From Methanoregula sp. (lineage in GTDB: Archaea > Halobacteriota > Methanomicrobia > Methanomicrobiales > Methanospirillaceae): a stretch of 40,000 nucleotides of DNA. Both the position numbers and the translations under genes were made by a program. Below the pieces are notes generated by a model. It worked only from the letters and a program-made list of their open reading frames with translations. It was not told where the DNA came from and made no database searches. Shown piece after piece: positions 1-13,039 of this stretch. Position 1 is the stretch's first letter, and the number at the start of each line of letters is the position of its first letter. The DNA is taken from the NCBI RefSeq assembly GCF_041645475.1, contig NZ_JBAZQA010000002.1, forward strand, positions 227,320 to 267,319. Direction: 5' to 3'.

Positions 1-140
1 ACCTCCCGATTAATTTCTGGAGGTGGAAAAGAGATATTATCCTTGACTCTTTTTCTTGCATATATTTTTGATTCATTTTGTTTGATGAAGTCAGATGTTT
101 TCTTGACATCGTCCTGAGATATTTCCCAAATGAGAGGCAC
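1..140 (-). CDS. Partial hypothetical ORF leaving the window at the left edge (possible GTG start at 140)
   Basis: Open frame on the minus strand from a GTG at 138-140 to position 1 (…PLIWEISQDDVKKTSDFIKQNESKIYARKRVKDNISFPPPEINRE…). It lies directly downstream of, and on the same strand as, the TA pair. No recognisable motif. Confidence 0.2.
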   Translation of the reverse strand, partial: MPLIWEISQDDVKKTSDFIKQNESKIYARKRVKDNISFPPPEINRE

Positions 141-188
141 CGTTTCACCACAGTATCAGAATAAGTCTCAATAGCAATTCGAAGAGGG

Positions 189-1313
189 TTAAGGTTGGGT
201 GTGAGAATGATAACTCTCTTTCAACTTGTTCAAATGAGTATATTTGATAATTCCTTCGTGTTGCAATCGTCCGACAACAATACCTGGGTGAATCTTGATC
301 TTTGAAGCAAATTCCAAGACTGATTTCTCACTTTTTAATTTTTTCAATTCGTTCGAATATTTGGGGGGAATCAGGAACTCGCTTGCCCATTTATCCGCAT
401 CACGTTCTTCTTTCAGGTCCACTCTTTTTCCGTCAATCTCGTCAAGAAAAATTTCTTTTTTATCCTGTTTTAAAAGGTGAGCTATCTCATGGAAAAAAGT
501 GAACCAGATTCGATCATTTGTCTTGCCATAGAGAGATAACTGGATTATTGGTTGATTGGGTTTCAACCACCGGGCAATACCACTCACATGTGCCCGGGGA
601 ATAGACGGGATGATTACTAAAATTACACCGGACTTCAAACATATTTCTTTCAAAGTTTCTTCAATCTCATTAAAGTGAGAAAGAGTAAGTGGTCGAATAG
701 TTTCTAAAGATTCTTCAAAAGTGCTTTTATTGAATTTTGGACTGTCGATCTTTTCCGCTTCAATTTCCCCCAGTCGGATCCAAGACGAAATCGCACCGAA
801 ATCACTCTGATCAGCCCGGGTGCATCTGAATGATCCAGACATTTTCGCAGTATGTGCTTCCCATGCGGCGGGAGATGCTACCTTGAATAATCGTAAAAGA
901 TCATCGACAATTTCAGCGAAGTATTTTTTAGCTACTCTTCGAGTCGGAATATATCCATGTTCCATCAAATCATGGATTGGCAATTTTTTTGCCCATTCAC
1001 CCCATGATTCAAGGCGCTTGGTTTCATGTAACCTGGCGAGATTCTGTTGATATTGTTCCTCCCGGTTCAACCAGAATTCCGCTGTACTGCCGAGCACACG
1101 TTCGAGTTTCAGAGCGGTATCTCTTGTTATGGGTGTTTTTGCTTTGATGATTTCATTGACATGTTTCTGAGACAACTCCATCCTCATAGCAAATTCAGCT
1201 TGCGTCCAACCGCGTTCTTCTAAGAGATCGGTGATGGTCTCTCCGGGTAATGAGACCCAATCCGGCGTGAAACGCTTCATTTTAATAGTCATGGTAATTT
1301 CCGATATATTCAA
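189..1313 (-). CDS. HigA-like XRE-family HTH antitoxin fused to an ImmA/IrrE (M78, COG2856-type) zinc-metallopeptidase domain
   Basis: N-terminal HTH (GWTQAEFAMRMELSQKHVNEIIKAKTPIT). C-terminal HEXXH (FFHEIAHLL) in the usual ImmA/IrrE context. It abuts or overlaps the upstream toxin gene. The real start is probably ATG 1292 or 1280 rather than 1313. Confidence 0.8.
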   Translation of the reverse strand: MNISEITMTIKMKRFTPDWVSLPGETITDLLEERGWTQAEFAMRMELSQKHVNEIIKAKTPITRDTALKLERVLGSTAEFWLNREEQYQQNLARLHETKRLESWGEWAKKLPIHDLMEHGYIPTRRVAKKYFAEIVDDLLRLFKVASPAAWEAHTAKMSGSFRCTRADQSDFGAISSWIRLGEIEAEKIDSPKFNKSTFEESLETIRPLTLSHFNEIEETLKEICLKSGVILVIIPSIPRAHVSGIARWLKPNQPIIQLSLYGKTNDRIWFTFFHEIAHLLKQDKKEIFLDEIDGKRVDLKEERDADKWASEFLIPPKYSNELKKLKSEKSVLEFASKIKIHPGIVVGRLQHEGIIKYTHLNKLKESYHSHTQP

Positions 1314-1614
1314 TGGTGACTTTGTTCACTTTGGACCAGTCAATCCTGCCATCTTTTGTTGGAACTGGTGAGTTCGCCGGTACGAATGTTAATCGGACAA
1401 GTCCAACAAGAGATAATGAATACTCTCCAGCACGCTCTCTTTTAAGTTCATGAGGATTTCCGGCGGGTAAATTTGTCGCAAAAGGAGCAGCCTGAATTTC
1501 TGAAAGACGAGTTCTCAATTTTTTTGCACAGGGAGCACCGAGTTTACGATTGGCTTCTCTTTCGCTTTCACAGATCGCCTGCAGCTCCGGAGTTTTAAAG
1601 CCCACGATGTCCAT
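1282..1614 (-). CDS. HigB-like toxin (RelE/ParE superfamily, plasmid-killer type)
   Basis: 110 aa. NPHELKRERAGEYSLSLVGLVRLTF and the C-terminal IEYIGNYHDY fit the HigB/killer-protein pattern. The toxin-first gene order with an HTH antitoxin is typical of HigBA. Confidence 0.7.
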   Translation of the reverse strand: MDIVGFKTPELQAICESEREANRKLGAPCAKKLRTRLSEIQAAPFATNLPAGNPHELKRERAGEYSLSLVGLVRLTFVPANSPVPTKDGRIDWSKVNKVTIEYIGNYHDY

Positions 1615-1627
1615 TTACGGCAAGATA

Positions 1628-1650
1628 TTATTTACCTTGTAGGTAAATAA
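1628..1650. promoter_or_regulatory. Palindrome TTATTTACC-n5-GGTAAATAA just upstream of the toxin gene; candidate TA operator
   Basis: Perfect 9-bp arms (1628-1636 and 1642-1650) located 14 nt upstream of the start at 1614, in an AT-rich promoter-like stretch. Confidence 0.4.
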
Positions 1651-1733
1651 CACTGTCGCTAGAAACTTACTGATTTGTCAATTTGAAATTCTAATGGCGA
1701 GGTTTGGGATGAATTGAGATTGCTCTGTTACGA

Positions 1734-2199
1734 TCAAGATCCAAACGGAAACCCGGGACAAACTTGCGGATACCTGGAAAAAATCGGAGAGCTATGACAC
1801 AACTCACATTCCGTAGAGGTTCCAACAAAGCTAAACATTTTGCTAACGCATCCCACGGGAGTGTCTCTCGGGCATGCCAATACGGGCCCGATACGGGTCC
1901 CGATTAGCCGTTTCCGGATCCAGACCATCCACTTACTGCAAAAACGCAGCCATTTGACCCTCCCTTTACCCGTGGAAATCTGCGGATTTCCGCCGGAATT
2001 CCATCCCCCCTTAACCATCCCCATATGGGTCAATTGGGATGGCGGAAGTCTCCTCAAATCGGACATCTGGGGGGGACCGGAGATTGGAGCGGGGTCCGGG
2101 AGACCTCTCCCCGGTACCTTACCATCATATGACGGAGATCGGTTCATGGTGGAAAAACGTGAGGAAGATCGGGATTTTGGGAACGGGTTGTTAAAAAAA
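1734..2199. repeat. GC-rich non-coding block embedded in the AT-rich island; shares short motifs with the backbone intergenic repeats
   Basis: Composition matches the GC-rich backbone. It contains GCCAATACGGGC and GGGTCCCGATTAG, which recur as GCCAAAATRCGGG and GGGYCCGGATTAG in the repeats at 17.1, 22.1, 38.9 and 39.4 kb. The ORFs here overlap on both strands and look non-coding. Confidence 0.35.
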
Positions 2200-3205
2200 T
2201 TGCTCTGTAGAAAAGATTTCTTTGAGTGAGAATCGAGCAGAGATTAACCAAAAGATCTAAGGTACGGTGTCTCCTTACAATGTTATGCGAGTAACGAATA
2301 AGGAGACAATAAAGAAATCGTCAGGCCGGTTTATCAGTTTTATCAAACATGCATTCTCGTTAGTACGTTCATCTCATCTCTCGCTGTATTCCTGCAAATA
2401 TTCGAGAAGAGATTATACCCAGCATCAACTTCTGACATTACTTCTCTTCAAAGAATATCGAAAAGAAGACTACCGAACGGTTATCTGGAATCTCGAAGAG
2501 ATGGACCGGATCCGGGAAGCCTTGGTCTTACGACAATTCCGCACTTCACCACGCTTCAGAAATTTCTCTGCCGAATCAAACCCATCTACTTCGATATTCT
2601 CTTAAAATGTACCCTGAAACTATTCTATTTCCCCGAAGACACAATTCCGATTACTGCCATCGATTCATCCGGGTTTACCAGCGGATATTGCAGTCATTAT
2701 TACTCGGAAAGAACCGGAAAGATCCGAAAACATTTCCTGAAAACTTCGATTGTTGTCGATATCGAACTGCAGGTTATCATCGGATTTATGATATCGAACA
2801 GCCGAGTCCATGATTCCCGACATGCTTTCTCTCTTCTGAAAAAATGTCACAAACTCCTTAAATCGCAGTGTTATGTCATGGACCGTGGATACGACTCCGA
2901 GAAAATGCACCGGTTTATTCGCGAATCTCTTCATGCAGACTCGATTATTCCAGCTCGTTCTCATCAATTTTCCACGAATGTCTGGGGGAAATATCGAAAG
3001 GAGATGACCGAGAATTTTGATTCAACTCGCTATCGAAAACGGTTCCTGGTCGAAACCAAGTTCTCCGTCATCAAACGGAGGTTCGGAGCTGACCTGAAAT
3101 CCCGAAAATTTCAGACCCAGATGAAGGAAATCTCTTGCAAGATCATTCTCGCTAACATTGACAGGTTCATACAATTTGTTTGGAGAATGGTTTTCTACAG
3201 AGCAA
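2200..3205 (+). mobile_element. Insertion sequence (~1 kb, IS4/IS5-type DDE transposase) with perfect 15-bp terminal inverted repeats
   Basis: TTGCTCTGTAGAAAA (2200-2214) is the exact reverse complement of TTTTCTACAGAGCAA (3191-3205). Both ends are flanked by A-runs, a possible target duplication. The repeats enclose a DDE transposase reading frame. Confidence 0.7.
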
Positions 3206-3261
3206 AAAAATTATGCGTGACCAGGAGATCTGAGAAATGTTGGGTTGAAGTATTCTTGTGA
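2267..3261 (+). pseudogene. DDE transposase (DDE_Tnp_1-like) interrupted by one -1 frameshift near 2518-2522
   Basis: Motifs VMDRGYDS and YRKRFLVETKFSVIKRRFG. The N-terminal part (…QHQLLTLLLFKEYRKEDYRTVIWNLEEMDRIREA) is in the frame of 2267. The continuation (LGLTTIPHFTTLQKFLCRIKP…AIDSSGF…) is in the frame of 2788-3261. No obvious slippery heptamer at the junction. Confidence 0.7.
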
Positions 3262-3279
3262 CATTTTCTATTTGATTAT

Positions 3280-5004
3280 TCAATCAACAAATTCGGCCAA
3301 TTTTTTATTTTTTGGAACAGCTTTCGATACAATCTGTATCATATCTCCGATACCTTTTGCCTTGATGAATCTAAATTTATTATTTACTAAATTTCCGAGA
3401 ACAAGTCGATACTTATCCCCAGCAATAACCGCGATCGTATCATATTGAATGAGATCTTGTTTCAATTTAATTTCAACATTCGGGCGGATTTTTTCCACGT
3501 CACAAATAGTATTTAGGCGTTGATCATAAGTCTCTAGGGAGAACTCTGGAGTTATTAACCCATGTTTTGCTGAAATAATACGATAGTCAAAATGCATAGC
3601 TTCTGCATAAGCACGTACTTTTTTAAACAGGGTTCCTTGGTAGAGTTCTTTTGCCATTACCTTGCCGTTTGATCCCTCTTCACAAGTGAGTTTGTTTTTC
3701 GAGCACCCGGTAATTACTAAAACATTTTCTTTCCCTTTTAAAAAATCCAGATTTGTTCGTTCGAGTGATCTGATTTGTTTCTCTAACTCTTTCTTTTTAC
3801 ACCGTTCCCATTTTGCTTTATCTTTCAAAATTTCATTAAATACGAACACATTATGAAAACCTCTCCTCCGGTTGCGATTATTTCCACGAAATATCACGAC
3901 ATCAATTTTAATTTCCTTGCAAATTGGGCAGGAGCATTGTTTCCAAGGTTTAGATTCCAATGTCCGTTGATAATACTTCAATAACTCTGGGTCTTCATGC
4001 ATTCGCTCAATAAATTTTTTTAATTTTTCCATGACTTTCTTAAGAGAGATCTCATCGTCATCGAATTTTCTTAAAGAGTTAAGACAATCGTTTGATAAAC
4101 TCGCATATTCATCAGGGTCGATGAATTCTAATTTTTCTTTCGTTAACTTTGATGGTATCCGGATTGCTGAATACCCTGTCCACGATTGATCTATATAATT
4201 AAATTCTGTATGTGCAGAAGTCAACCACGCTTTTCGGAGATGTGATGATGAATCAAACGACGTGGAAATTCCCATATCATCAAGCTCTTTGAATTTAGAG
4301 AATAGTGAATATCGTGCCACTCCGAAAAAATGAATTAACTCTGGCTTCTTTTTTGTTTTATTGATATCTTCAATTAAGGCCTCGATTAGTTGAATAATAA
4401 ATGTGGTTTGTGTTCGTACCAAACCACCAAATGCGAAATGTCGAATTCCATTTTTGTAGAACTTATTGAACATTAGAAGATAATCACGAATTTCAGCACC
4501 TTGAACCGCAACGATTAGCTGAAAATCTTCCTTATACTTATTTTTCCACTCATTATGTGCTTCAACACCGTTTTTGAATGTAATTTCTATACGTTGTTTG
4601 TTTTTTTCCTTATGCATAGGAACAACTAAATGGTCAATGCTAACTCCATAATTGAAATCTAAGTCGCTGTAAATTTTTAAAACATCGGATGTTTTATAGG
4701 GAGGAATTTCTTGATCGATATATGAAAAAGCGCCACAATCCGCGAGAATTTGAAAATCCTGTGGTAGTCCTAAAAAGCTATGAATGCCTTTATCGAGAAT
4801 CGATTTGTATTTTCTTGTGTTTTGCTGAAGATTCGCAATAGAGACAAGAACTCCATCAAAAGGGACTTTTTCTTTCTCGAAGATATCCCACATATAGGAG
4901 TCGTTTTCCATAGGATTTGCATTATGCATCGCAGAATGGGAATCGGTTGAAAAATCATAGCCGGGATCGACCCGGTCGTCCCACTCGGGGATGAAAAAGC
5001 GCAT
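3280..5004 (-). CDS. TGT-fold (DpdA-like transglycosylase) protein fused to a C-terminal DUF6884-like domain
   Basis: The N-terminal ~395 aa carry the ordered TGT signatures: ILADCGAFSY (cf. DSGGFQ), HFAFGGLV (cf. AIGGL), IHFFGVARY, TSFDSSSHL, and zinc motif CSCPIC-x21-H (nt 3853-3936). C-terminal aa ~427-565 (nt ~3310-3726; VLVITGCSKNK…AKELYQGTLFKK…IISAKHGLITP…YDQRL) fit my recollection of DUF6884. Confidence 0.7.
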   Translation of the reverse strand: MRFFIPEWDDRVDPGYDFSTDSHSAMHNANPMENDSYMWDIFEKEKVPFDGVLVSIANLQQNTRKYKSILDKGIHSFLGLPQDFQILADCGAFSYIDQEIPPYKTSDVLKIYSDLDFNYGVSIDHLVVPMHKEKNKQRIEITFKNGVEAHNEWKNKYKEDFQLIVAVQGAEIRDYLLMFNKFYKNGIRHFAFGGLVRTQTTFIIQLIEALIEDINKTKKKPELIHFFGVARYSLFSKFKELDDMGISTSFDSSSHLRKAWLTSAHTEFNYIDQSWTGYSAIRIPSKLTKEKLEFIDPDEYASLSNDCLNSLRKFDDDEISLKKVMEKLKKFIERMHEDPELLKYYQRTLESKPWKQCSCPICKEIKIDVVIFRGNNRNRRRGFHNVFVFNEILKDKAKWERCKKKELEKQIRSLERTNLDFLKGKENVLVITGCSKNKLTCEEGSNGKVMAKELYQGTLFKKVRAYAEAMHFDYRIISAKHGLITPEFSLETYDQRLNTICDVEKIRPNVEIKLKQDLIQYDTIAVIAGDKYRLVLGNLVNNKFRFIKAKGIGDMIQIVSKAVPKNKKLAEFVD

Positions 5005-5062
5005 TAATATGATTCTGTTTCGGATAGTGAAATTTGTTTTTATTTTATGTATTATGGATGAA

Positions 5063-6046
5063 TTACGGATATCTTAACTCATGAGGACTGCTCGGACAAT
5101 CCCATCGTTTATCACAAGTTGTACAGGTATCATCTCCAGGAAGGTTCTCCGCAGTTGGAGCATCCCAACGTTCAACTTGTTTACAGTGTTCAATATTTTT
5201 AACAGTATGGTGAAATTCGTCGAGCGCTTCATGAATATTTTCTATATTTGCGGGATCAGTAAAATCTAATGAAAAGATTGCTTTCTGTCGCATCATTAAA
5301 ATTTGTTGTTCTGATGGATTTGGAATTGCTCGACTGGATAATTCATTTAAAAAATATAATACTCCTTTTTTTGGGTATTTTCCAGTTTTCAAATGATACA
5401 TATAAGCGTAAACAAGTAATTGAAAACGATAATTTTGCATTCTTCTTTGATTTTGTTGATTTTGTGGTTGATGCAATGGATTTTTTGCAGCTTTATAATC
5501 CCAAATTTCTACTAGATCATATTCTTCTGGGATCTCTTCGTCAGATGTATCTTTTAGTACGTCAACAACACCCTGTAAGATATACCCATTCTGTTGATTC
5601 TGAAACCGGTATTCAGTATCTCTAATATTGGGATAAAGGGATGCACCTTCGATCGCATTAAATTGCTGTAATATTCTTAAAGCATGTTGTTCGTCGCCAT
5701 CTCGGTCTAATGTTCGACTATATGATTTAATTCCGCGAACTCGCAAACTTTCATTTATCTGAATAAAAAAAACTTCAACATCATTTTGGGTGGGGAGTTG
5801 TCCTTGGCGTTCAGGATTCAAACGACCTTGATATTGTTGATGTAGTTTATCAAGAACCTGATGAATAATTGTTCCAAACCACAGTTGAATATTATGAGCA
5901 GGGGTATAACCTCGTTGTGAAAAAAAGCCATACTGTCTTGGACAGGTTTTATACGCCAAGATATCTCCAGTGATGCTATATGTGGGTAATGGTTCGTGAA
6001 GATCTCTTCGTGTTACAGTTATGGAATTAAATTCTTCAAATGGCAT
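5063..6046 (-). CDS. PD-(D/E)XK nuclease of the Cas4/AddB type with a four-cysteine Fe-S signature
   Basis: N-terminal Cys (YKTCPRQY) plus C-terminal CTTCDKRWDC gives C…CX2CX5C. Nuclease core GVVDVL…VEIWDYK and QLLVYAY (QxxxY). Likely start is ATG 6046, preceded by AGGGGG, 11 nt after the helicase stop. The ORF-track start 6130 would overlap the helicase. Confidence 0.75.
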   Translation of the reverse strand: MPFEEFNSITVTRRDLHEPLPTYSITGDILAYKTCPRQYGFFSQRGYTPAHNIQLWFGTIIHQVLDKLHQQYQGRLNPERQGQLPTQNDVEVFFIQINESLRVRGIKSYSRTLDRDGDEQHALRILQQFNAIEGASLYPNIRDTEYRFQNQQNGYILQGVVDVLKDTSDEEIPEEYDLVEIWDYKAAKNPLHQPQNQQNQRRMQNYRFQLLVYAYMYHLKTGKYPKKGVLYFLNELSSRAIPNPSEQQILMMRQKAIFSLDFTDPANIENIHEALDEFHHTVKNIEHCKQVERWDAPTAENLPGDDTCTTCDKRWDCPSSPHELRYP

Positions 6047-6056
6047 GAAATTCCCC

Positions 6057-8399
6057 CTAAATAAAATGAACAATTTGTCGAAAACGATTTGGATCTCTTC
6101 CAATAATACCAAATCCAGTTTGGTTATCACCAGTTCGACTTATCCGAAGTTCCTGTTGTGTCAATAAATGAATCAATGCGCATCTTGCTCTTGAATAAGC
6201 TACAAAATAAAATCTTATTTTGTCTTGAGCGGATTTGTCGTGACATGCAATATTGTTTTGAATTTGGTTTTGACAAAATGGTGCATAATCACATTCAATA
6301 TGAATTGATTCATCTTCATCGTCTTCTTGTTGACTTAATCCCCAAATAAAAACAAAATCGAATTCTAAACCTTTTGCTTGGTGAACAGTCATAATTGGTA
6401 AGTGATTAGGAGGTGCGATAATCTCATCATCCTCAGGATCATTTTCGCCGTATGCCATTAGACGAGTAACAAAGAGTTTATAAAAATCCATTAACCATTT
6501 ATGACTGGCATACCCTCCCCGACTACTCGCCCAAATTTCTCCACGATTCGATCTTCGATTTTGATCAAAATAAGGTATTGCAGAAAATTGTTCAAATAAT
6601 GATGATAATTTTCCTAATCGGTACGTTCGTTCAGGATCTTCTTTCCAGTTAGAAAACGGTTGCCGAGAAATAATAAGATAGAATAATTCCGCCATTGACA
6701 GTTTTAGTTTTTCTTGAGGTTGTTTTTGTCGAATACGCCTAGTGGCTTCGTTAACATACATCGATAATTCGGCAGAATTAGGTGCAATTCGTTGATATTC
6801 CTGGATCCATTGCTGTACATTTCTTCCAATATTATTTTTTACCGCCGTTCCTCCTCTCATATACCTAATTCCTTCCAGGTCAGGATCAATAATTGATATA
6901 AATGCTCCAAGAGCAACCGCAATTTCTTCTTGAACCAAAAATTGTCGAGATCGGGGGTTATAAGGAGTGATTCCTTGATTTTTTAATTCATTTACAAATT
7001 GTAATGCATGTCTACTCGTCTCTCTAACGGATTTCATTAAAAGAACGCATTGGCTATAATCTTGAATTTTATTATTGTCATGTAACCATTTGACCATCGA
7101 AGCAAACTGACGTGCAGTATCAGATTTTGTATTCGTGCGAATACAGGTAACAGAGGGATAATTTCCATGAACTTGTGAACCGAATACCAATCTCGGTTTG
7201 TTTTGGATTCGAGCTCCAGGCATATTCATTTGAGGAAATGAAAGAAGATATTCGTTACAATATTCAACGATTTTTTCATGTGAACGATAATTTGTATTTA
7301 AGTAACGAGATGTACATTCGACGCTCCATTGTTGTTGACATCTTTGACTAAAATTAACAATGCATTCAACAGTGCCTCCTCTGAAACGATATAAGGCTTG
7401 ATCATCATCACCAACAATACAAATATTATGAGGGGCATTTCGTGACAGAGAGAAATAAATTAATTCCTGGATTGGATTTGTATCTTGATATTCATCAACC
7501 ATCAAATACTCAAGTCGAGGATACATTTCATAATTCTCGGGATCTCCATCGACAAACAACCGTCCGTGAGGGGTGTTAAGAAATTCTAAAAATTTTGATT
7601 GTAACGTTGAAAAATCACATCTTTGAAAATGTGTTAATTGTTCTTGATATTGCTCGAATCCCTCAACAAGAAGTCGCCACGAATCCCCAGATTCGCGCAT
7701 TAAATTTAAGTTAATTCGATATTCTGTAATCCGGTTGAATAAATTAATTGCAGCTCTCGTGAGCGCCCATTTATTTGGTGGATATTGATGATTATTCCAC
7801 CCTCTATATCCACTTACGGGGTCATATTTTTCAAATAAATAATCAAATTGCTCGTAAACAGGAAGATAATGATCATCTTCTTGAACGAGATTCGAATGTT
7901 CAAATGTGAAAAGGAATTGTTCAAAGTCATCCATTAATCGGAAATTTTGATAATCCGGTGAATGATATTCTTGCATCACATCATTACAGAGACTATGAAG
8001 AGTACAAATTCTAAGATTGTAAATATCAATTGATTCCTGTAATTTTGGATGGTGCTCAAAAAAATATTCTGCGCCAGTGATAATCCTTTCTTTGATATTT
8101 TTTGCAGCCTTTTCAGTGAACGTTGTAACAATTATTGATTTGGGATCAACATTTCGAACAAAAAGAAGATAAAGCGTTCTTAAAACAAGCGTTTCAGTTT
8201 TTCCCGACCCAGGACCAGCAATTATGTGCAATGGACCATTTGTGTGAGTGATGATTTTTCCTTGTTCATTTAATATAATCTCACCGGCGGCATTCGTATT
8301 ATAAATTCTATATCCTAAACGAGGTTCCAATAATTGACTGAATTCTTGAAATTCCATGTTATCCATCCGGTGGTTGTACTTGTTTATTACGGATGTCAC
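6057..8399 (-). CDS. UvrD/Rep-family SF1 DNA helicase
   Basis: Walker A IIAGPGSGKTET, motif II MVDEYQDTNP, YRFRGG and TVHQAKGLEFDFVF. The start may be one of the downstream ATGs (8366 or 8357). Confidence 0.9.
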   Translation of the reverse strand: MTSVINKYNHRMDNMEFQEFSQLLEPRLGYRIYNTNAAGEIILNEQGKIITHTNGPLHIIAGPGSGKTETLVLRTLYLLFVRNVDPKSIIVTTFTEKAAKNIKERIITGAEYFFEHHPKLQESIDIYNLRICTLHSLCNDVMQEYHSPDYQNFRLMDDFEQFLFTFEHSNLVQEDDHYLPVYEQFDYLFEKYDPVSGYRGWNNHQYPPNKWALTRAAINLFNRITEYRINLNLMRESGDSWRLLVEGFEQYQEQLTHFQRCDFSTLQSKFLEFLNTPHGRLFVDGDPENYEMYPRLEYLMVDEYQDTNPIQELIYFSLSRNAPHNICIVGDDDQALYRFRGGTVECIVNFSQRCQQQWSVECTSRYLNTNYRSHEKIVEYCNEYLLSFPQMNMPGARIQNKPRLVFGSQVHGNYPSVTCIRTNTKSDTARQFASMVKWLHDNNKIQDYSQCVLLMKSVRETSRHALQFVNELKNQGITPYNPRSRQFLVQEEIAVALGAFISIIDPDLEGIRYMRGGTAVKNNIGRNVQQWIQEYQRIAPNSAELSMYVNEATRRIRQKQPQEKLKLSMAELFYLIISRQPFSNWKEDPERTYRLGKLSSLFEQFSAIPYFDQNRRSNRGEIWASSRGGYASHKWLMDFYKLFVTRLMAYGENDPEDDEIIAPPNHLPIMTVHQAKGLEFDFVFIWGLSQQEDDEDESIHIECDYAPFCQNQIQNNIACHDKSAQDKIRFYFVAYSRARCALIHLLTQQELRISRTGDNQTGFGIIGRDPNRFRQIVHFI

Positions 8400-8403
8400 C
8401 GAT

Positions 8404-8444
8404 AAACTTATTCATTTGGTGACCATTTAAACGAAAATAAGTTT
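8404..8444. promoter_or_regulatory. Inverted repeat AAACTTATT-n23-AATAAGTTT between the ATPase operon and the helicase gene
   Basis: Perfect 9-bp arms at 8404-8412 and 8436-8444, immediately upstream of the helicase start. Function is unknown (operator or transcript-end structure). Confidence 0.2.
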
Positions 8445-8495
8445 TTAGGGGAATGATTATCATCAAAATATGTAAAAGTTAATCACCGAAAAAAT

Positions 8496-9677
8496 TTAAT
8501 TAGAAATAATCGAAATTAAAACATCTTGCTCTATCGATTTTTTATCCAGATCTAAAGATACATCTAATGCTTGACTGGAAAGCGAAATGACTCGTCGTGT
8601 ATTTCCCTGCGAATGGATGTAAATTTGTTCAATGGATCTCTCAGTAAATGGAGAGAATGAATCATTTTTCTTTGTTCGTTTGTTATTCAGATAGGATATC
8701 AAGAGCATCCGGATCTTTTCCTGATCAAGAGGTTTGAGATTCGCTTCTTTACCGATTCGTTCTGAGAACGCATGATACTCAGCAACAATATTCTGCCAGA
8801 CTTCCGGTGCACAAGCGATGATGAGGGATAATCCCTCCCCGTTGAGATCGATAACGTGCCGGAGATAATTGAGCATTTTTTGTTTCTTCAATGAAGGGAG
8901 TGTTTCTATGTATTCAAATTCATCAATGAGAAGTATGAGCGAAGAAAAACCAAGCTCCTTAAGAATAAATTTTAGAGATCCCAATGCTCGAATTGAATTG
9001 GTATCATTGATATTTTTTCCAAGAGAAAGCTCCTGCCGTTTTGTATATTCTACACCCTCCCCACATAGCCACTCCCAAGAATAGATGGAGTTTTCTTCAT
9101 AGGATAATGCAATGAAAGCACGTGTATAATCGACGAATTTAATTCCATCATTAAGTCGTTGAATAGCCTTTGGAACAATATCTGAGATAAGTACATCTCC
9201 TTTTTCAATCTGTTTCCAACCTTGTCCTTTCCGGATTTTTTCTTCGATCAATCCTTCTTTCGATAATTGGTACGCGATAAGGCCGAGATATTCTTGGGAG
9301 ATATGTTTGACAAATGAATATCCAAGATCATACATAAATTTTGTATAGATATCGAGAAAATTCTCACCAGGTTGAGAGACATATCCAACACAGATCGGGG
9401 TATCGGATTTTTCCGAGAATTGATCTCGGATATGAGATTTAATGAATTTCAATGTATGACTTTTTCCATTCCCATATGAGCCTGTCACAATTATATGATT
9501 TGACTGTCCAGTGAGGACTGTCGATGATAATACCGAATTAATTTTTGTGAGAACCTCATCCTGTCCGATATACACATTGGGATGTTCATCAGGAACCCCG
9601 GAAAACGGAAAGGGGTTTCCAGTTAGCCCGTACTTTGAGTAATCTTTATTTTTTAATGTCAAAGTAAATTCAGTCAA
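8496..9677 (-). CDS. AAA-type ATPase with ExeA/AAA_22-like N-terminal signature
   Basis: YSKYGLTGNPFPFSG…, then Walker A VTGSYGNGKSHT and Walker B LILLIDEFEYI. Only TTG starts (9677 or 9662) precede the conserved N-terminus. It overlaps the upstream gene by 8 nt. Confidence 0.75.
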   Translation of the reverse strand: MTEFTLTLKNKDYSKYGLTGNPFPFSGVPDEHPNVYIGQDEVLTKINSVLSSTVLTGQSNHIIVTGSYGNGKSHTLKFIKSHIRDQFSEKSDTPICVGYVSQPGENFLDIYTKFMYDLGYSFVKHISQEYLGLIAYQLSKEGLIEEKIRKGQGWKQIEKGDVLISDIVPKAIQRLNDGIKFVDYTRAFIALSYEENSIYSWEWLCGEGVEYTKRQELSLGKNINDTNSIRALGSLKFILKELGFSSLILLIDEFEYIETLPSLKKQKMLNYLRHVIDLNGEGLSLIIACAPEVWQNIVAEYHAFSERIGKEANLKPLDQEKIRMLLISYLNNKRTKKNDSFSPFTERSIEQIYIHSQGNTRRVISLSSQALDVSLDLDKKSIEQDVLISIISN

Positions 9678-10512
9678 TTAGTTCACCGCCGTGATATGCA
9701 ACATAGTAGTATGATTTTGGTCCAACATTCAGACCGTTGAGATACTGATTTGAGGATAGTTTCATCGTTATTTTATCAGGGAGTTCGAGGAAATGTACAT
9801 TCTTCACTTTGTTAGCTGATCGTTTGGCGTGGGTTGTGACCGGAGCTCCTGCAAGCTCAATCTTTCCGATATTTTTCATACACAGCTGAATGAATCGTGA
9901 ATCAAAGGAGTCCCGGGAAATCCTCATATTCTGGCAGATATACTCGCGGATCTTGGGAATTTCTACATATCTTTGCCGGAGAGAAAGTCCGGTTTTGATA
10001 TTGAGCGATTGATAGGAATCGAGAAAGGCGGGGATAATAGAGGATGATAACTCAGTGATGGTAAAATATTGGTTGGTGAAGATATTACGTTGAATGGATC
10101 CGATACGTTCTCCCCAATCGCATAATACATCACAGGAGGCCTGATTGAAGTGAACCGGAGAAGATTGCAGGCAAGTAAGAATCTCTTCAGGTGTGGAAGG
10201 TTCAATTGATTGAAGTTGAGTGAAAAATGTCTGATAAAATGAGTAATCCATCATCAAATTATGAATACTAATCCAATTGTTTGTCCGAATATCATCTAGA
10301 AATTCAGAACCTTTTTTTGTTTCATAATATTGTGTCCCATCTTTTTCTAACAACCCAATATTCACAATCTCATCAGCAACATCTTTTCCGCGCTCTTCAG
10401 AAGATTTTAGAAATGTCGTTAGCTCTTGTTTTGAAAACGCTCTTGTCATCTCGGCGAAATAAAGTGTTTCCACAACACGACTCAACGTGACCGGGCGCAT
10501 CGTAAGCCTCAT
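9670..10512 (-). CDS. Hypothetical protein with N-terminal winged-helix-like segment
   Basis: 280 aa. SKQELTTFLKSSEERGKDVADEIVNIGLLEKDGTQYYETKKGSEFL resembles a MarR-like wHTH. The rest is unrecognised. It is translationally coupled on both sides (ATGA overlap at 10509-10512; 8-nt overlap at 9670-9677). Confidence 0.5.
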   Translation of the reverse strand: MRLTMRPVTLSRVVETLYFAEMTRAFSKQELTTFLKSSEERGKDVADEIVNIGLLEKDGTQYYETKKGSEFLDDIRTNNWISIHNLMMDYSFYQTFFTQLQSIEPSTPEEILTCLQSSPVHFNQASCDVLCDWGERIGSIQRNIFTNQYFTITELSSSIIPAFLDSYQSLNIKTGLSLRQRYVEIPKIREYICQNMRISRDSFDSRFIQLCMKNIGKIELAGAPVTTHAKRSANKVKNVHFLELPDKITMKLSSNQYLNGLNVGPKSYYYVAYHGGELID

Positions 10513-11540
10513 ACAAAACCTCCGACTTTAGATTTTGCATATTTGTACGCAATTTTAATCTGAGCGCTATTCATGAAACGATAATCAAGGTACGATTCAA
10601 GATCGCCTTCAAGAATGTGCATCTTCAATTTTCTGATTTCATATGAGATCATCCAGAGGTTATGCATCCCGATAAGTCGTCGTTGAGATCGAACTTGTTC
10701 AAAGGAATTTTTACTACAAACCGGACAAACACAGGGAAGCATTTCAGTTTGTGGCAATTCATTGAATGCAAATGATTTCTGTTCCGGAGCAAAGTATACC
10801 CGATTTGATCCGGCGGATAGGAAGGATGATGAATCGAATGAATCAACACCAAGGTATGTCAACAAGGGAATCATTGCTGGTCCACCTAATCCGAACACAT
10901 GCAATGGTTTCTCCCCGGTCCGTTTTCTGATAGCGAGGATAAGGTCAATAAGATGACGATAATTCGATCGTTTTAAAATTAATCCCCCGATTGCAAATCC
11001 ATTAAAATTTCCTTTACGGTTGAGATAATCGATCATATTCGTCATTACTTTGATATCATTGCCGTGAATGACTGCATAGAGGAGCATATCTTCTCGCTCT
11101 CGGTTTTTCGAAGCGAGGAGGGCATTTTTTACTGTTCTTTGGATATACTCAGCATGTTTATCGTCAGAAATATTGTCAGTGATGAAAACAGGTGCATCGA
11201 GTGTTGCGGCGATATCGGCGCCAATTTCTTCCTGGATTCGTAAAATTTCTAGTGGATCTATAATTGCATTATTCAAACGACTTTGTAATCCGCCACTATC
11301 TGCAAAAAAGATCCCGTTAAATTGGAAATGGTTATGAAGTCCTTTTGTACTTATTCGTTTGAATTTTTCTGATTTACTTATATAATGGGCATTCACAAGC
11401 ATTGTTCTCATTTCAGGAATTTCATTCCAATATTTCGGAAATGATCCGGTTCCTTGTTTATTCAGATGAAATACAGGAAAGAAGATCGGAGTTTCTAAGT
11501 TACCGTGCGCAGTTTCTATAATTTTAATATTAAACGGCAT
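10509..11540 (-). CDS. Catalytic-domain-only tRNA-guanine-transglycosylase family protein (DpdA-like)
   Basis: HGNLETPIFFPV, FFADSGGLQS, GFAIGGL, LHVFGLGGP, GVDSFDSSS and zinc motif CVCPVCS-x17-H. At 343 aa it has no PUA or other C-terminal tRNA-binding domains. Confidence 0.8.
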   Translation of the reverse strand: MPFNIKIIETAHGNLETPIFFPVFHLNKQGTGSFPKYWNEIPEMRTMLVNAHYISKSEKFKRISTKGLHNHFQFNGIFFADSGGLQSRLNNAIIDPLEILRIQEEIGADIAATLDAPVFITDNISDDKHAEYIQRTVKNALLASKNREREDMLLYAVIHGNDIKVMTNMIDYLNRKGNFNGFAIGGLILKRSNYRHLIDLILAIRKRTGEKPLHVFGLGGPAMIPLLTYLGVDSFDSSSFLSAGSNRVYFAPEQKSFAFNELPQTEMLPCVCPVCSKNSFEQVRSQRRLIGMHNLWMISYEIRKLKMHILEGDLESYLDYRFMNSAQIKIAYKYAKSKVGGFV

Positions 11541-11558
11541 TTGAAATACACCACTTAT

Positions 11559-11589
11559 TGATTAGCCTAATTTATAGTTTAGCTAATCA
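11559..11589. promoter_or_regulatory. Inverted repeat TGATTAGC-n15-GCTAATCA enclosing a bidirectional TATA-like element in the divergent promoter region
   Basis: Perfect 8-bp arms (11559-11566 and 11582-11589). The spacer CTAATTTATAGTTTA reads TTTATA on the + strand and TATAAA on the - strand. It sits between the minus-strand operon start (11540) and the wHTH-queC operon (11619). Confidence 0.4.
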
Positions 11590-11618
11590 TAACTATAAGT
11601 ATCTTTTGAAATAATGTT

Positions 11619-11900
11619 GTGAAGGATATGGTATCATTTATTCCAAAATTTCTTTTAACAGATCTCGCGGTGTTATTTTCAAAATTTGGTTACAACGAAT
11701 TTGCTTTTCAAAATGCACTCGAATTGCTTTCACATGATTATAGATATACCTCAATAATTTTATCAAAACTTGAAAAATCGGGATATATTTCAAAACGTCA
11801 GGATCCTTCAGATGGGAGAAAAAGATTCTACAAAATTAATAAAATTAATTTTGAGGATATCATGAAAGAAATAGGAGGAAACAGGAGGGAGAGTAAATGA
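11619..11900 (+). CDS. Small winged-helix (MarR-like) transcriptional regulator
   Basis: YTSIILSKLEKSGYISKRQDPSDGRKRFYKINK is a typical wHTH recognition helix plus wing. ATGA overlap with queC. The start is GTG 11619 or ATG 11628. Confidence 0.65.
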   Translation: MKDMVSFIPKFLLTDLAVLFSKFGYNEFAFQNALELLSHDYRYTSIILSKLEKSGYISKRQDPSDGRKRFYKINKINFEDIMKEIGGNRRESK

Positions 11901-12553
11901 ACTCACGTGCTGTGATAATTCTATCCGGGGGAATGGACAGTACAACTCTTCTTTATGATCTCATCAACCAGAAATACTCAATCCATGCAGTCACTTTCGA
12001 TTATGGACAGAAACATAAAAAAGAGATTTCCTATGCGATAAAAACCTGTGAGCGATTAAAAATTCCACAGAAGATAATTGATATAAATATTCTGAATGAT
12101 CTCGCACCATCTTCACTAACGCGAACCGATTGGGAAGTCCCTGAGGGGAATTATGCAGATAACAACATGAAGCAGACCGTTGTTCCCAACCGGAACATGG
12201 TTCTGCTTAGTCTTGCTGCAGCTTTCGCAATTGGGATCAAAGCCACTCACCTATATTACGGTGCACATTCTGGAGATCATGCAATTTATCCGGATTGCCG
12301 ACCGTCATTCGTTAGCGCAATGGCGACTGCATTTCATCTCTGCGACTGGGATGATCTGACCTTATCTGTACCATATCTTCAGATGTCCAAAGGAGATATT
12401 GTCAAACGCGGATTGTCCCTCGGTGTTGATTATTCCAATACATGGACGTGTTACAAAGGAGAGGAAAAATCCTGTGGAAAATGTGGCTCGTGCGATGAAC
12501 GATTAGCTGCGTTTCGGGAAGCAGGTGTAGACGATCCGTTGGAATATCAATAA
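11897..12553 (+). CDS. queC: 7-cyano-7-deazaguanine synthase QueC
   Basis: PP-loop ILSGGMDSTT, FDYGQKH, and the C-terminal zinc cluster CYKGEEKSCGKCGSCDER. The length (218 aa) is typical. Confidence 0.92.
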   Translation: MNSRAVIILSGGMDSTTLLYDLINQKYSIHAVTFDYGQKHKKEISYAIKTCERLKIPQKIIDINILNDLAPSSLTRTDWEVPEGNYADNNMKQTVVPNRNMVLLSLAAAFAIGIKATHLYYGAHSGDHAIYPDCRPSFVSAMATAFHLCDWDDLTLSVPYLQMSKGDIVKRGLSLGVDYSNTWTCYKGEEKSCGKCGSCDERLAAFREAGVDDPLEYQ

Positions 12554-12652
12554 TTTCCCATTTTTGCATATCAATCTCAAATTAATCACCGGATTTAAAT
12601 ATTTGATTCGCATGATTGTTAATTAAAAAAAACCATCGTGTGATGATGACCT

Positions 12653-13039
12653 ATGGGTAGATATGGAGAATGTGCAATTCTTGCAACAAAATTCTTAGCA
12701 GAAAAGAATATAAAAAATCCAAGGGACGCATGGGAACTAGCTATTTCTAAATTAGTGAAGAATGACCCGAGTGAATGGGTCATGAAGAAGGGATGTCCAA
12801 GAGCTGCATTCCTTAGCCTTTGTGAGGAGGGCCTTGTTCGAGGAGTGGACTGTGGAAAATATACGAGATCAACTAAAAATTAGGCATATGCATTAAATGC
12901 TGTAAAGGAATTAGGTCAAATCTCAAAACCAGTTAAACAATTGGAATTATGGCGAAAAATAGGAAATCAATTTGCTCATTCAGGACAGATGGACGTCGTT
13001 CTATCCCTATGGGACAATGATCTAATTTTGAAAAAATAA
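12653..13039 (+). pseudogene. Conserved-looking hypothetical gene interrupted by a single in-frame TAG (12881-12883)
   Basis: After the TAG the same frame stays open and protein-like to TAA 13037-13039 (…YTRSTKN*AYALNAVKELGQISKPVKQLELWRKIGNQFAHSGQMDVVLSLWDNDLILKK). The KGCPRAAFLSLCEEGLV and QMDVV segments resemble a family I recall as DUF6979-like. Confidence 0.55.

What the first reader, a model, noticed from the sequence alone, without database searches (positions are those of the whole stretch)
3280..5004. Fusion of a divergent TGT-fold domain with a DUF6884-like domain
Seen: one 574-aa ORF joins a TGT-like domain to a ~140-aa C-terminal domain through a Lys/Glu-rich linker. The TGT part has ADCGAF, FGGL, FDSSS and CxCxxC-x21-H. 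The C-terminal domain has the pattern GCSKNK…LYQGTLF…ISAKHGL…YDQRL. The catalytic-loop sequence (DCGAF rather than DSGGxQ) and long insertions distinguish it from the second paralogue in the same cluster. Inference: the appended domain could be a partner activity (base processing or target recognition) for the transglycosylase. I know of no assigned function for it.
Basis: partly seen in the sequence, partly recalled or inferred. Interest (0 to 1): 0.7.

Follow-up and report, generated by a model that had tools for sequence, protein, structure and literature searches.

The report
Fused archaeal DNA deazaguanine writer
A methanogen gene joins DpdA, the enzyme that swaps guanine in DNA for a 7-deazaguanine base, to a small domain related to DpdC, the enzyme that finishes that mark; it is a conserved archaeal variant of a known bacterial DNA-marking defence system, not a new kind of enzyme.

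Summary

The N-terminal 394 aa are not a "divergent TGT". They are a bona fide DpdA, the DNA-guanine transglycosylase. They pass the NCBIfam equivalog cut-off, their best structural match is the DpdA crystal structure 7UI4, and the catalytic Asp pair and Zn site are intact.

The C-terminal ~148 aa are a minimal DUF6884 domain. This is the YaaA-like superfamily that contains DpdC, which converts preQ0-DNA to amido-deazaguanine (ADG) DNA.

The fusion is a conserved archaeal family, with at least 118 full-length clusters. DUF6884 is also linked to DpdA in other ways:
- reversed fusions in bacteria;
- an apparently independent C-terminal fusion in a Bacteroidota MAG;
- split DUF6884-UvrD-nuclease-DpdA operons;
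- a phage cassette.

The gene lies in a low-GC island with QueC, a UvrD-like helicase, a PD-(D/E)XK nuclease, a second arcTGT-like paralogue and an ATPase. There is no DpdB.

Best reading: a single-polypeptide, two-step 7-deazaguanine DNA writer of a DpdB-less, Dpd-like system. The chemistry of the mini-domain is inferred, not shown. This is a new variant of a known kind, of moderate interest.

The parts
3280..5004 (-). Whole ORF, 574 aa: DpdA-DUF6884 fusion protein (stop codon 3280-3282).
   Evidence: It is 100% identical to P0001, a Methanoregula sp. protein that NCBI names 'tRNA-guanine transglycosylase DpdA'.
3823..5004 (-). DpdA domain, aa 1-394: a TGT-type TIM barrel with the DpdA insertions.
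   Evidence: NCBIfam NF041059 at 310.3 bits against a cut-off of 200. PADLOC DpdA 2.9e-83. PDB 7UI4 E 8.5e-53. AF2 pLDDT 91.2, and Foldseek against 7UI4 gives E 8e-31, TMt 0.84, rmsd 2.5.
4726..4743 (-). ADCGAF, aa 88-93. D89 corresponds to Asp95 (general acid/base) and F93 to Phe99 of S. Montevideo DpdA.
   Evidence: Alignment to 7UI4. Residue roles are from PMC10164549. D89 is invariant in 118 sequences and F93 is at least 90% conserved.
4243..4257 (-). FDSSS, aa 250-254. D251 corresponds to the Asp256 nucleophile.
3853..3936 (-). Structural Zn site: C357, C359, C362 ... H384.
   Evidence: All four residues are invariant and align to CECNIC...H of 7UI4.
3727..3822 (-). Charged helical linker, about aa 395-426.
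   Evidence: 48% K/E/R/D over aa 391-432. The AF2 model has helices 375-394 and 396-413. Length and sequence vary in relatives.
3283..3726 (-). Minimal DUF6884 domain, aa 427-574: YaaA-like alpha/beta fold, DpdC superfamily.
   Evidence: Pfam PF21818 at 65.9 bits. PADLOC PDC-M57A 1.1e-15 and DpdC 9e-5. AF2 pLDDT 89.5. Foldseek top PDB hit is YaaA 5CAJ, prob 1.00. Phage DUF6884 proteins reach TMq up to 0.77.
3691..3705 (-). C434-x3-K438, the DUF6884 'CxxxK' motif and putative catalytic Cys/Lys.
   Evidence: Invariant in 118 sequences. The motif is named in the Pfam paper. The Cys is also kept in a genuine Enterobacter DpdC, where the Lys is Asn.
3556..3576 (-). ISAKHGL, aa 477-483, the DUF6884 '(L/I)SAxxG' motif.
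   Evidence: S478 and A479 are invariant and G482 is at least 90% conserved. The motif is shared with standalone, reversed-fusion and classical DpdC forms.
5063..6046 (-). PD-(D/E)XK (Cas4/AddB-like) nuclease. Probable start at 6046; the longest ORF runs to 6130.
   Evidence: Pfam PDDEXK_1 3.6e-17. Called as 327 aa on an independent contig. Adjacent to DpdA in 7 of 14 well-flanked fusion loci and 9 of 11 split loci.
6057..8366 (-). UvrD/PcrA-like SF1 helicase. The longest ORF runs to 8399.
   Evidence: Pfam UvrD-helicase 8.2e-54 and UvrD_C 4.7e-21. Called as 769 aa. Always paired with the nuclease.
8496..9677 (-). BrxD/ORC-Cdc6-like P-loop ATPase, 393 aa.
   Evidence: Pfam BrxC_BrxD 1.4e-14. 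NCBIfam BrxD 9e-11, far below its cut-off. Part of the TGT2 module in 8 of 14 fusion loci.
9670..10512 (-). 280-aa protein with a weak winged-helix signal, function unknown.
   Evidence: Only sub-threshold HTH_45 and WH hits. Syntenic with TGT2 and the ATPase in L001, L002, L007-L010, L085, L090 and L091.
10509..11540 (-). Second transglycosylase paralogue: an arcTGT catalytic domain only, 343 aa, with catalytic and Zn motifs present and no PUA/C1/C2 domains.
   Evidence: Pfam TGT 1.6e-38. TIGR00432 at 181 bits, below its cut-off of 350. 1IQ8 E 4.7e-35 over residues 28-347 of 582.
11619..11900 (+). Small MarR-like wHTH protein, divergently transcribed. Possible regulator.
   Evidence: Weak MarR and SarA hits. 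Syntenic in L001, L002 and L091.
11897..12553 (+). QueC, 7-cyano-7-deazaguanine (preQ0) synthase.
   Evidence: Pfam QueC 1.6e-68. TIGR00364 at 217 bits against a cut-off of 150.

Best explanation
The ORF encodes a bifunctional, single-polypeptide writer of 7-deazaguanine in DNA. It belongs to a horizontally acquired, DpdB-less, Dpd-like modification/defence island of a Methanoregula archaeon.

Step 1 rests on strong homology. The N-terminal DpdA domain excises a guanine base from duplex DNA through a covalent Asp251-deoxyribose intermediate, with Asp89 as general acid/base. It then inserts preQ0, which is supplied by the adjacent QueC and the host's archaeosine precursor pathway.

Step 2 is inferred. 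The tethered mini-DUF6884 domain binds the same DNA, flips out the newly inserted 7-cyano-7-deazaguanine and processes its nitrile. The most likely reaction is hydration to the amide (dADG), as DpdC does without cofactors. The invariant Cys434 is the plausible nucleophile, acting through a thioimidate as in QueF and the nitrilases, assisted by Lys438 and Ser478.

Step 3 is inferred from synteny. The ATP-dependent DNA opening that DpdB provides in Salmonella is supplied here by other genes of the island. Candidates are the UvrD-like helicase with its PD-(D/E)XK nuclease, and the second TGT with the winged-helix protein and the BrxD-like ATPase. The helicase-nuclease pair probably also acts as the effector against unmarked DNA.
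For: DpdA identity:
- NCBIfam equivalog at 310 bits against a cut-off of 200.
- PADLOC DpdA 2.9e-83.
- PDB 7UI4 at E 8.5e-53, with D89, F93, D124, D251 and the Cys3His site aligned to the residues shown to be essential or structural in PMC10164549.
- AF2 pLDDT 91 and TM 0.84 to 7UI4.

C-domain:
- Pfam DUF6884 above the gathering score, and a YaaA-like fold.
- DUF6884 is the domain reported for DpdC, and DpdC makes ADG-DNA from preQ0-DNA with no cofactor beyond Mg/DTT buffer.
- hhalign of the C-domain profile against a genuine Enterobacter DpdC (PADLOC 6e-142) gives prob 72%, E 3e-5. It aligns the Cys, A..LY.G, ILSAGxGL and PY motifs.

Rosetta-stone evidence that DUF6884 works with DpdA:
- archaeal DpdA-DUF6884 fusions (at least 118 clusters);
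- an apparently independent C-terminal fusion in a Bacteroidota MAG, nested in the split clade;
- about 40 bacterial loci with the reversed DUF6884-DpdA ORF of roughly 680 aa, annotated as one CDS in RefSeq;
- 10 split loci in which a standalone DUF6884 gene sits beside a UvrD-nuclease-DpdA cluster, directly upstream of UvrD in most;
- dpdC directly upstream of dpdA in the classical cluster;
- a phage cassette of TGT-like gene, DUF6884 and preQ0 transporter.

Pathway context: QueC is adjacent here, and full FolE2-QueD-QueC-QueE sets sit beside the fusion in Bathyarchaeia.

Defence-island context: low GC, a neighbouring Type IV restriction enzyme, DpdJ-like helicases and PLD nucleases in relatives' loci.
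Against: - The C-domain is only the ~140-aa core. Genuine DpdC is 283-319 aa, and its C-terminal half has no counterpart here. PADLOC DpdC profiles match only aa 443-494 at E 9e-5.
- The Enterobacter DpdC itself scores below the Pfam DUF6884 gathering cut-off (23.6 against 30), and its residue equivalent to Lys438 is Asn.
- The same mini-domain, with the same motifs, is fused to a Dam-like N6-adenine methyltransferase. It also occurs in phages with no annotated deazaguanine genes nearby. The family has about 7000 representatives. Its chemistry may therefore not be nitrile-specific.
- Salmonella DpdA needs DpdB, and no DpdB is detectable in the window or in any related locus. How the DpdA domain gains access to duplex G is unexplained.
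- No modification data exist for any organism that carries this fusion.
Confidence: 0.55

Rival explanations
1. The DUF6884 domain is a non-hydratase helper. It is a DNA-binding, base-flipping or lesion/abasic-site-handling module that gives the DpdA domain access to duplex DNA or guards its intermediate. It would functionally replace DpdB, and the final mark would be dPreQ0 itself.
For: No DpdB is found in the window or in any of the 94 related loci. The YaaA/DUF6884 fold has a positively charged DNA-binding cleft, YfjM was pulled down on abasic and RNA-base lesions, and YfjM is modelled flipping a base (PMC11701544). The identical mini-domain is fused to a D12 adenine methyltransferase, another base-flipping enzyme. 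It also occurs in phages without deazaguanine genes. The C-terminal half of classical DpdC is absent.
Against: The invariant Cys, Lys and Ser-Ala motifs across 118 sequences look catalytic rather than merely DNA-binding. In the one system tested, the DUF6884-superfamily partner (DpdC) is a catalyst that acts independently of DpdA and is not needed for insertion. Parsimony favours one role for the DpdA-linked DUF6884 proteins, because the bacterial fused domains bridge the mini-domain and DpdC profiles.
Confidence: 0.27
2. The protein is a two-step writer, but the C-domain produces a different product from dADG. One candidate is an amidine (2'-deoxyarchaeosine) formed by attack of ammonia or an amine on a Cys-thioimidate, by analogy with archaeal QueF-L and ArcS.
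For: The hosts are archaea, in which preQ0 in tRNA is normally converted to archaeosine. ArcS C1 has a PC-X3-K motif that resembles DUF6884 C-x3-K. A relative's DUF6884 domain gives a weak DUF5591 (ArcS C1) hit at 19.9 bits, E 7e-4. The mini-domain differs from classical DpdC in keeping Lys438.
Against: The DUF5591 hit is below threshold and is absent for the window protein itself. Foldseek found YaaA, not ArcS. The only demonstrated chemistry in the superfamily is hydration to the amide.
Confidence: 0.1
3. The protein is a tRNA-modifying enzyme, an alternative archaeosine-pathway transglycosylase, as NCBI's product name 'tRNA-guanine transglycosylase DpdA' would suggest.
For: It has a TGT-fold catalytic core, the host is an archaeon that uses preQ0 in tRNA, and an arcTGT-like paralogue sits in the same cluster.
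Against: Pfam TGT does not match this ORF. It belongs to the DpdA equivalog and superposes on the DNA preQ0 insertase including its insertions. There are no PUA or C1/C2 tRNA-binding domains. It lies in a low-GC, patchily distributed island with helicase, nuclease and restriction genes. Phage dpdA did not complement an E. coli tgt deletion (PMC6884629).
Confidence: 0.05

Closest known systems
Bacterial DpdA (S. enterica Montevideo, PDB 7UI4), the DNA preQ0 insertase of the Dpd restriction-modification system
   Same: TIM-barrel TGT fold with the DpdA insertions (TM 0.84, rmsd 2.5 A). GDCGAF, D124, FDS and Cys3His motifs. Passes the NCBIfam equivalog cut-off. Linked to preQ0 synthesis genes.
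   Different: 28% identity. Gln168 replaces His181, as in tRNA TGTs. Carries a C-terminal DUF6884 domain. Archaeal host. No DpdB partner gene and no dpdD-K set in the window.
DpdC (the preQ0-DNA to ADG-DNA enzyme; historically called DUF328-like, now DUF6884)
   Same: Same superfamily and core motifs: Cys, A..LY.G, (I/L)SAxxG and PY. Same genetic partner, since dpdC lies directly upstream of dpdA.
   Different: DpdC is 283-319 aa, with a C-terminal half that is absent here. Only weak partial profile matches (E 9e-5; hhalign prob 72%). The Enterobacter DpdC has Asn where this family has the invariant Lys438.
Bacterial DUF6884-DpdA 'reversed' fusions (about 680 aa; for example Paenibacillus sp. 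37 plasmid WP_149847115, annotated dpdA)
   Same: The same two domains in one polypeptide. DpdB-less loci. Often accompanied by a second TGT paralogue, a P-loop NTPase, que genes and DpdJ-like or UvrD-type helicases.
   Different: Opposite domain order. The DUF6884 part is longer (about 265-380 aa, with insertions) and closer to DpdC profiles (1e-11 to 1e-13). It forms a separate DpdA clade.
Split archaeal/Dehalococcoidia loci: a standalone DUF6884 gene beside UvrD, PD-(D/E)XK and DpdA
   Same: The same four functions as window 3280-8399, and the same mini-DUF6884 type (PDC-M57A-like).
   Different: DUF6884 is a separate 150-190-aa gene. The DpdA is only about 35% identical and forms a separate clade.
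E. coli YaaA (PDB 5CAJ) and B. subtilis YfjM (DUF6884)
   Same: The 'cantaloupe' alpha/beta fold, as the best PDB fold match. Both are proposed DNA binders.
   Different: 14% identity and TMq 0.49. No link to deazaguanine. YaaA is 261 aa with extra elements.

Membership tests
DpdA (NCBIfam NF041059 equivalog; DNA-guanine transglycosylase) | Scores above the curated whole-protein cut-off of the equivalog model. | tested here: met
   310.3 bits against a cut-off of 200, aa 1-394 on profile positions 1-404 of 406. PADLOC DpdA 2.9e-83.
DpdA (NCBIfam NF041059 equivalog; DNA-guanine transglycosylase) | TGT-type TIM barrel with the DpdA-specific insertions, superposable on the DpdA crystal structure. 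| tested here: met
   AF2 model pLDDT 91.2. Foldseek against 7UI4: E 8e-31, TMt 0.84, rmsd 2.5 A over 418 columns. The next-best hits are tRNA TGTs, at E about 1e-8 and TMt about 0.5.
DpdA (NCBIfam NF041059 equivalog; DNA-guanine transglycosylase) | Catalytic Asp95 and Asp256, base-binding Asp130 and Phe99, and the Cys3His Zn site. | tested here: met
   D89, D251, D124, F93 and C357/C359/C362/H384 align to these residues. All are invariant in 118 relatives except F93, which is at least 90% conserved. His181 is Gln168 here.
DpdA (NCBIfam NF041059 equivalog; DNA-guanine transglycosylase) | Exchanges guanine for preQ0 in DNA. | not testable with these tools
   Requires biochemistry or LC-MS of DNA.
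Classical Dpd system (dpdA-dpdB-dpdC plus dpdD-K) | A DpdB (DGQHR/ParB-like ATPase) gene next to dpdA. | tested here: not met
   No PADLOC DpdB hit for any cluster gene. phmmer and an iterated HMM built from Enterobacter DpdB hit nothing in the window or in the other 94 loci. The rest of the window encodes pilus, ABC-transporter and cobalamin genes.
Classical Dpd system (dpdA-dpdB-dpdC plus dpdD-K) | The restriction genes dpdD-K. | tested here: not met
   None in the window. DpdJ-like helicases (2e-66) and PLD nucleases do occur beside the fusion in other genomes.
DpdC | Full-length match to DpdC profiles (about 300 aa, including the C-terminal half). | tested here: not met
   Only aa 443-494 match profile positions 44-95 of 310, at E 9e-5. 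A genuine DpdC scores 6e-142 over positions 37-318.
DpdC | Shares the core fold and core motifs with DpdC. | tested here: met
   hhalign prob 72%, E 3e-5 over 65 columns covering the Cys, A..LY.G, ILSAGxGL and PY motifs. YaaA-like fold.
DpdC | Converts dPreQ0 in DNA to dADG. | not testable with these tools
   Shown only for S. Montevideo DpdC.
Pfam DUF6884 (PF21818) | Above the gathering score, with the CxxxK and (L/I)SAxxG motifs. | tested here: met
   65.9 bits against 30. C434-x3-K438 and I477-S-A-K-H-G482 are present. The motifs are named in PMC11701544.
tRNA-guanine transglycosylase (Pfam PF01702; arcTGT TIGR00432) | Matches the TGT model and, for arcTGT, carries the C1/C2/PUA tRNA-binding domains. 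| tested here: not met
   No PF01702 hit at E <= 0.1 for this ORF. The only NCBIfam hit other than DpdA is a sub-threshold, unrelated match. The C-terminal region is DUF6884, not PUA.

The most novel reading that the evidence does not exclude
These ~570-aa proteins are DpdB-independent, self-contained writers that place a 7-deazaguanine mark on archaeal chromosomes. As far as the literature I could search shows, that would be the first deazaguanine DNA modification of cellular archaea. They would work with a helicase-nuclease pair and/or a second, arcTGT-derived transglycosylase. The mini-DUF6884 domain would not simply be a short DpdC. It would be a general base-flipping Cys/Lys enzyme module, also recruited by Dam-like methyltransferases and phages and possibly related to the ArcS C1 C-x3-K domain. 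It would then either substitute for DpdB or make a product other than dADG.
Probability: 0.3. Interest if true: 0.7.

Novelty: new variant of a known kind. Interest (0 to 1): 0.45.

Why it matters
Dpd is the largest known restriction-modification system. Its modification chemistry has been reconstituted only for the Salmonella DpdA/DpdB/DpdC trio.

This family packs the two modification activities into one polypeptide and does without DpdB. That has three consequences:
- The repeated fusions give independent evolutionary evidence that DUF6884 proteins are the obligate partners of DpdA.
- The family offers a minimal construct for studying how a TGT-fold enzyme gains access to duplex DNA without the ParB-like ATPase.
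- It predicts that methanogens, Bathyarchaeia and other archaea carry 7-deazaguanines in their own DNA. This can be tested directly in cultured strains.

It also gives a functional handle on DUF6884, a family with about 7000 representative clusters that has no assay.

Tried and rejected
- Divergent or degenerate TGT: rejected. Pfam TGT misses the ORF, but the DpdA equivalog, the PADLOC model, the PDB sequence match and the fold match are all strong.
- Assembly or frameshift artefact joining two genes: rejected. There are 118 full-length relatives with conserved domain order. Split or frameshifted variants exist, but they are the exceptions (L012; L093).
- Housekeeping arcTGT or ArcS: rejected, because of the domain content and the island context.
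- Word-indexed homologue search with the C-domain alone: only 2 hits. An exhaustive profile search replaced it.
- Profile search of PDB sequences with the C-domain: nothing meaningful. Only the fold search found YaaA.
- Literature searches for DUF6884, DpdA/DpdC fusions, archaeal Dpd and PDC-M57, plus reading eight papers: no description of this fusion or of cellular archaeal Dpd systems. Thiaville 2016 (PNAS) is not held, so prior mention cannot be excluded.
- ArcS C1 (DUF5591) relationship: only a sub-threshold hit, and in a relative. There is no ArcS sequence in the held loci to test it against. It remains a lead.
- The NJ tree used to argue for independent fusions has no bootstrap support.
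Full report
**1. The observation.** The window has one ATG-initiated ORF of 574 aa at 3280..5004 on the minus strand.
- ADCGAF 88-93, FGGL 192-195 and FDSSS 250-254;
- C357-x-C359-xx-C362-x21-H384;
- GCSKNK 433-438, LYQGTLF 454-460, ISAKHGL 477-483 and YDQRL 493-497.

The connecting segment (aa 391-432) is 48% charged. The second paralogue at 10509-11540 (-) has ADSGGLQ and matches Pfam TGT at 1.6e-38, whereas the 574-aa ORF does not match Pfam TGT at all.

**2. The N-terminal half.** It is a regular member of the DpdA family, not a divergent TGT.
- NCBIfam's DpdA equivalog scores 310 bits against a cut-off of 200, over aa 1-394. PADLOC DpdA gives 2.9e-83.
- The only PDB sequence match is 7UI4, 'DNA-guanine transglycosylase' of S. 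enterica Montevideo, at E 8.5e-53.
- In that alignment D89/F93 (the DCGAF loop), D124, D251 and the Cys3His site fall on Asp95/Phe99, Asp130, Asp256 and the Zn site. The DpdA paper showed or proposed these to be the general acid/base, base-recognition residues, nucleophile and structural metal (PMC10164549). His181 is Gln168 here.
- An AF2 model built on 118 relatives has mean pLDDT 91.2 and pTM 0.80. Its best PDB match is 7UI4 (E 8e-31, TMt 0.84, rmsd 2.5 A), far ahead of the tRNA TGTs (E about 1e-8).

DCGAF and the 'long insertions' are therefore the DpdA signature.

**3. The C-terminal half.**
- Pfam DUF6884 matches aa 432-543 at 65.9 bits, against a gathering score of 30. PADLOC's best model is the candidate-defence protein PDC-M57A (1.1e-15), with weak partial DpdC matches (9e-5).
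- A separate AF2 model of aa 421-574 has pLDDT 89.5.
- Its top PDB fold match is E. coli YaaA 5CAJ (E 1.4e-3, prob 1.00, TMq 0.49). Its top viral matches are phage DUF6884 proteins (TMq up to 0.77).
- This agrees with Pfam's own description of DUF6884 as a YaaA-related, probably DNA-binding fold with CxxxK and LSAxxG motifs (PMC11701544). Both motifs are present here and invariant (C434...K438, S478-A479).
- DUF6884 is the Pfam domain reported for dpdC. [quoted passage not shown]
- I located a genuine DpdC directly upstream of dpdA-dpdB on an Enterobacter plasmid. Profile comparison with the C-domain alignment gives probability 72%, E 3e-5 over 65 columns, covering the Cys, A..LY.G, ILSAGxGL and PY motifs.
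- That DpdC is twice as long. It is itself below the Pfam DUF6884 gathering score. It has Asn at the position of Lys438.

**4. The fusion is a conserved family.**
- The window protein is identical to a Methanoregula sp. protein that NCBI names DpdA.
- 118 of the 120 best clusters are full-length (559-608 aa, 46-84% identity) and carry PF21818. The named ones come from Methanomicrobiales, Bathyarchaeia and Nitrososphaeria. The genome scan adds Aenigmatarchaeota loci.
- A rough NJ tree of DpdA domains makes the archaeal C-terminal fusions one clade.

**5. DUF6884 and DpdA are linked in several independent ways.** Scanning all ORFs of 80 genome loci with an HMM of the C-domain showed the following.
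- About 40 bacterial loci (Paenibacillus, cyanobacteria, proteobacteria, Chloroflexi) have a single ORF of roughly 680 aa with a DUF6884/DpdC-like domain at the N-terminus and DpdA at the C-terminus. RefSeq annotates one of these as a single 689-aa 'dpdA' CDS.
- A Bacteroidota MAG has a C-terminal fusion nested among unfused DpdAs. This looks like an independent fusion event.
- Ten archaeal and Dehalococcoidia loci encode a separate 150-190-aa DUF6884 beside a UvrD, PD-(D/E)XK and DpdA cluster, directly upstream of UvrD in most.
- A haloarchaeal plasmid has DpdA, DUF6884, a second TGT and a preQ0 transporter.
- Fusobacterium phage phiFN37 has a TGT-like gene, a mini-DUF6884 and a preQ0 transporter in a row.

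This is strong Rosetta-stone evidence that the domain works with DpdA on the same substrate.

**6. Context in the window.**
- The gene ends a tightly packed minus-strand array: arcTGT-like paralogue, 280-aa protein with a weak winged-helix signal, BrxD/ORC-like ATPase, UvrD-like helicase, PD-(D/E)XK nuclease, then the fusion. A MarR-like gene and QueC are transcribed divergently.
- The array occupies a low-GC island at about 3.2-13.0 kb (33-41% GC against 50% or more beyond it). A DDE transposase fragment flanks one side and a Type IV restriction enzyme the other.
- Among 14 fusion loci with at least 5 kb of flank on both sides, 7 have the UvrD-nuclease pair, 8 have the TGT2/wHTH/ATPase module and 12 have at least one of them.
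- Some loci add complete FolE2-QueD-QueC-QueE sets, DpdJ-like helicases (2e-66) and PLD nucleases.
- DpdB, which Salmonella DpdA needs, was not found in the window or in any related locus.

**7. Mechanism.**
- Shown by homology: an intact DpdA active site and an intact DUF6884 motif set on one chain, next to preQ0 synthesis genes.
- Inferred: the DpdA domain inserts preQ0 into DNA. The tethered DUF6884 domain then processes the inserted base, most likely by hydrating the nitrile to the amide as DpdC does, with Cys434 as nucleophile. The helicase and ATPase genes replace DpdB and supply the restriction arm.
- Caveats: the domain is only the DUF6884 core. The same core is fused to a D12 adenine methyltransferase. 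It also occurs in phages without annotated deazaguanine genes nearby. The family has 7019 representatives at E <= 1e-3.

A generic base-flipping or DNA-handling helper role, or a different nitrile product, therefore remains open. I rate these at 0.27 and 0.10, against 0.55 for the DpdC-like reading. A tRNA role is unlikely (0.05).

**8. Comparison and novelty.**
- The protein is a member of DpdA and of Pfam DUF6884.
- It works like DpdA plus DpdC, but it is not a member of the DpdC orthologous group as PADLOC models it.
- Its locus is not a classical Dpd system, because it has no DpdB and no dpdD-K.
- The databases already name it DpdA or 'DUF6884 domain-containing protein'.
- None of the papers I could search or read describes the fusion, its reversed bacterial counterpart or cellular archaeal Dpd-like systems (and the readings listed under 'tried and rejected'). 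The 2016 discovery paper was not available.

I class this as a new variant of a known kind, with moderate interest (0.45). The prediction is directly testable, because three cultured methanogens carry the gene.

Noticed in passing
window 8496-11540 (-): A three-gene module sits beside the fusion in 8 of 14 well-flanked loci. It comprises an arcTGT catalytic-domain-only paralogue (motifs intact, no PUA), a 280-aa protein with a weak winged-helix signal, and a BrxD/ORC-like ATPase. A second TGT plus a hypothetical protein plus a P-loop NTPase also follows DUF6884-DpdA on a Paenibacillus plasmid, and a second TGT plus a hypothetical protein sits beside DpdA and DUF6884 on a Natronococcus plasmid. 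I found no description of two transglycosylases per system in the papers read.
   Followed up: partly
window 5063-8399 (-): A UvrD-like helicase and a PD-(D/E)XK nuclease form a conserved pair next to DpdA. The pair occurs in archaea, Dehalococcoidia and many bacteria that lack DpdB, including 9 of 11 split loci. It may be the effector or a DpdB substitute.
   Followed up: partly
window 13296-16388 (-): A 1030-aa PLD + ResIII helicase + DUF3427 protein matches PADLOC's Type IV methyl-directed restriction enzyme at 1.8e-216. It lies just outside the low-GC island. A 49%-identical homologue lies about 1.7 kb upstream of the DUF6884-DpdA ORF in Paenibacillus tyrfis (L021).
   Followed up: partly
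window 1-3261 and 3200-13000: The Dpd-like cluster is a low-GC island (33-41% GC against 50% or more beyond it). On its left are a DDE_Tnp_1 transposase fragment (2788-3261) and an HTH_3 + M78 (ImmA/IrrE-like) protein (189-1313) with a small upstream ORF.
   Followed up: partly
L017, L058, L076, L024, L087 and about 35 other bacterial loci: Single ORFs of roughly 680 aa carry a DpdC-like DUF6884 domain N-terminal to DpdA. RefSeq labels them only 'dpdA', so the DpdC-like half goes unannotated.
   Followed up: yes
L094 631-2160 (protein P0170): The same mini-DUF6884 domain is fused to a D12-class N6-adenine DNA methyltransferase. This protein also gives a sub-threshold hit to DUF5591, the ArcS C1 domain, whose PC-X3-K motif resembles DUF6884 C-x3-K. 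It could be a link between DpdC-type and ArcS-type nitrile chemistry, or it could be chance.
   Followed up: partly
L097 3188-5015 (Fusobacterium phage phiFN37): A phage cassette runs ParB-like, TGT-like (267 aa), mini-DUF6884 (144 aa), queuosine-precursor transporter. Other phages (Burkholderia KS14 gp8, Caulobacter W2/Kronos) carry DUF6884 with no deazaguanine genes annotated nearby.
   Followed up: partly
L012 10001-11717; L093 1364-3077: In one Methanoregulaceae genome the fused gene is interrupted by a frameshift. A 69%-identical relative is split into overlapping 413-aa and 162-aa genes at the linker.
   Followed up: no
L081, L083, L091: A conserved five-gene set lies next to the fusion in three Methanomicrobiales-type loci: a 262-aa protein, a ~1120-aa AAA ATPase, an ~835-aa DpdJ-like helicase, a ~680-aa protein and a ~1060-aa PD-(D/E)XK + AAA_12 protein. 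Two of the proteins match no Pfam or PADLOC model.
   Followed up: partly
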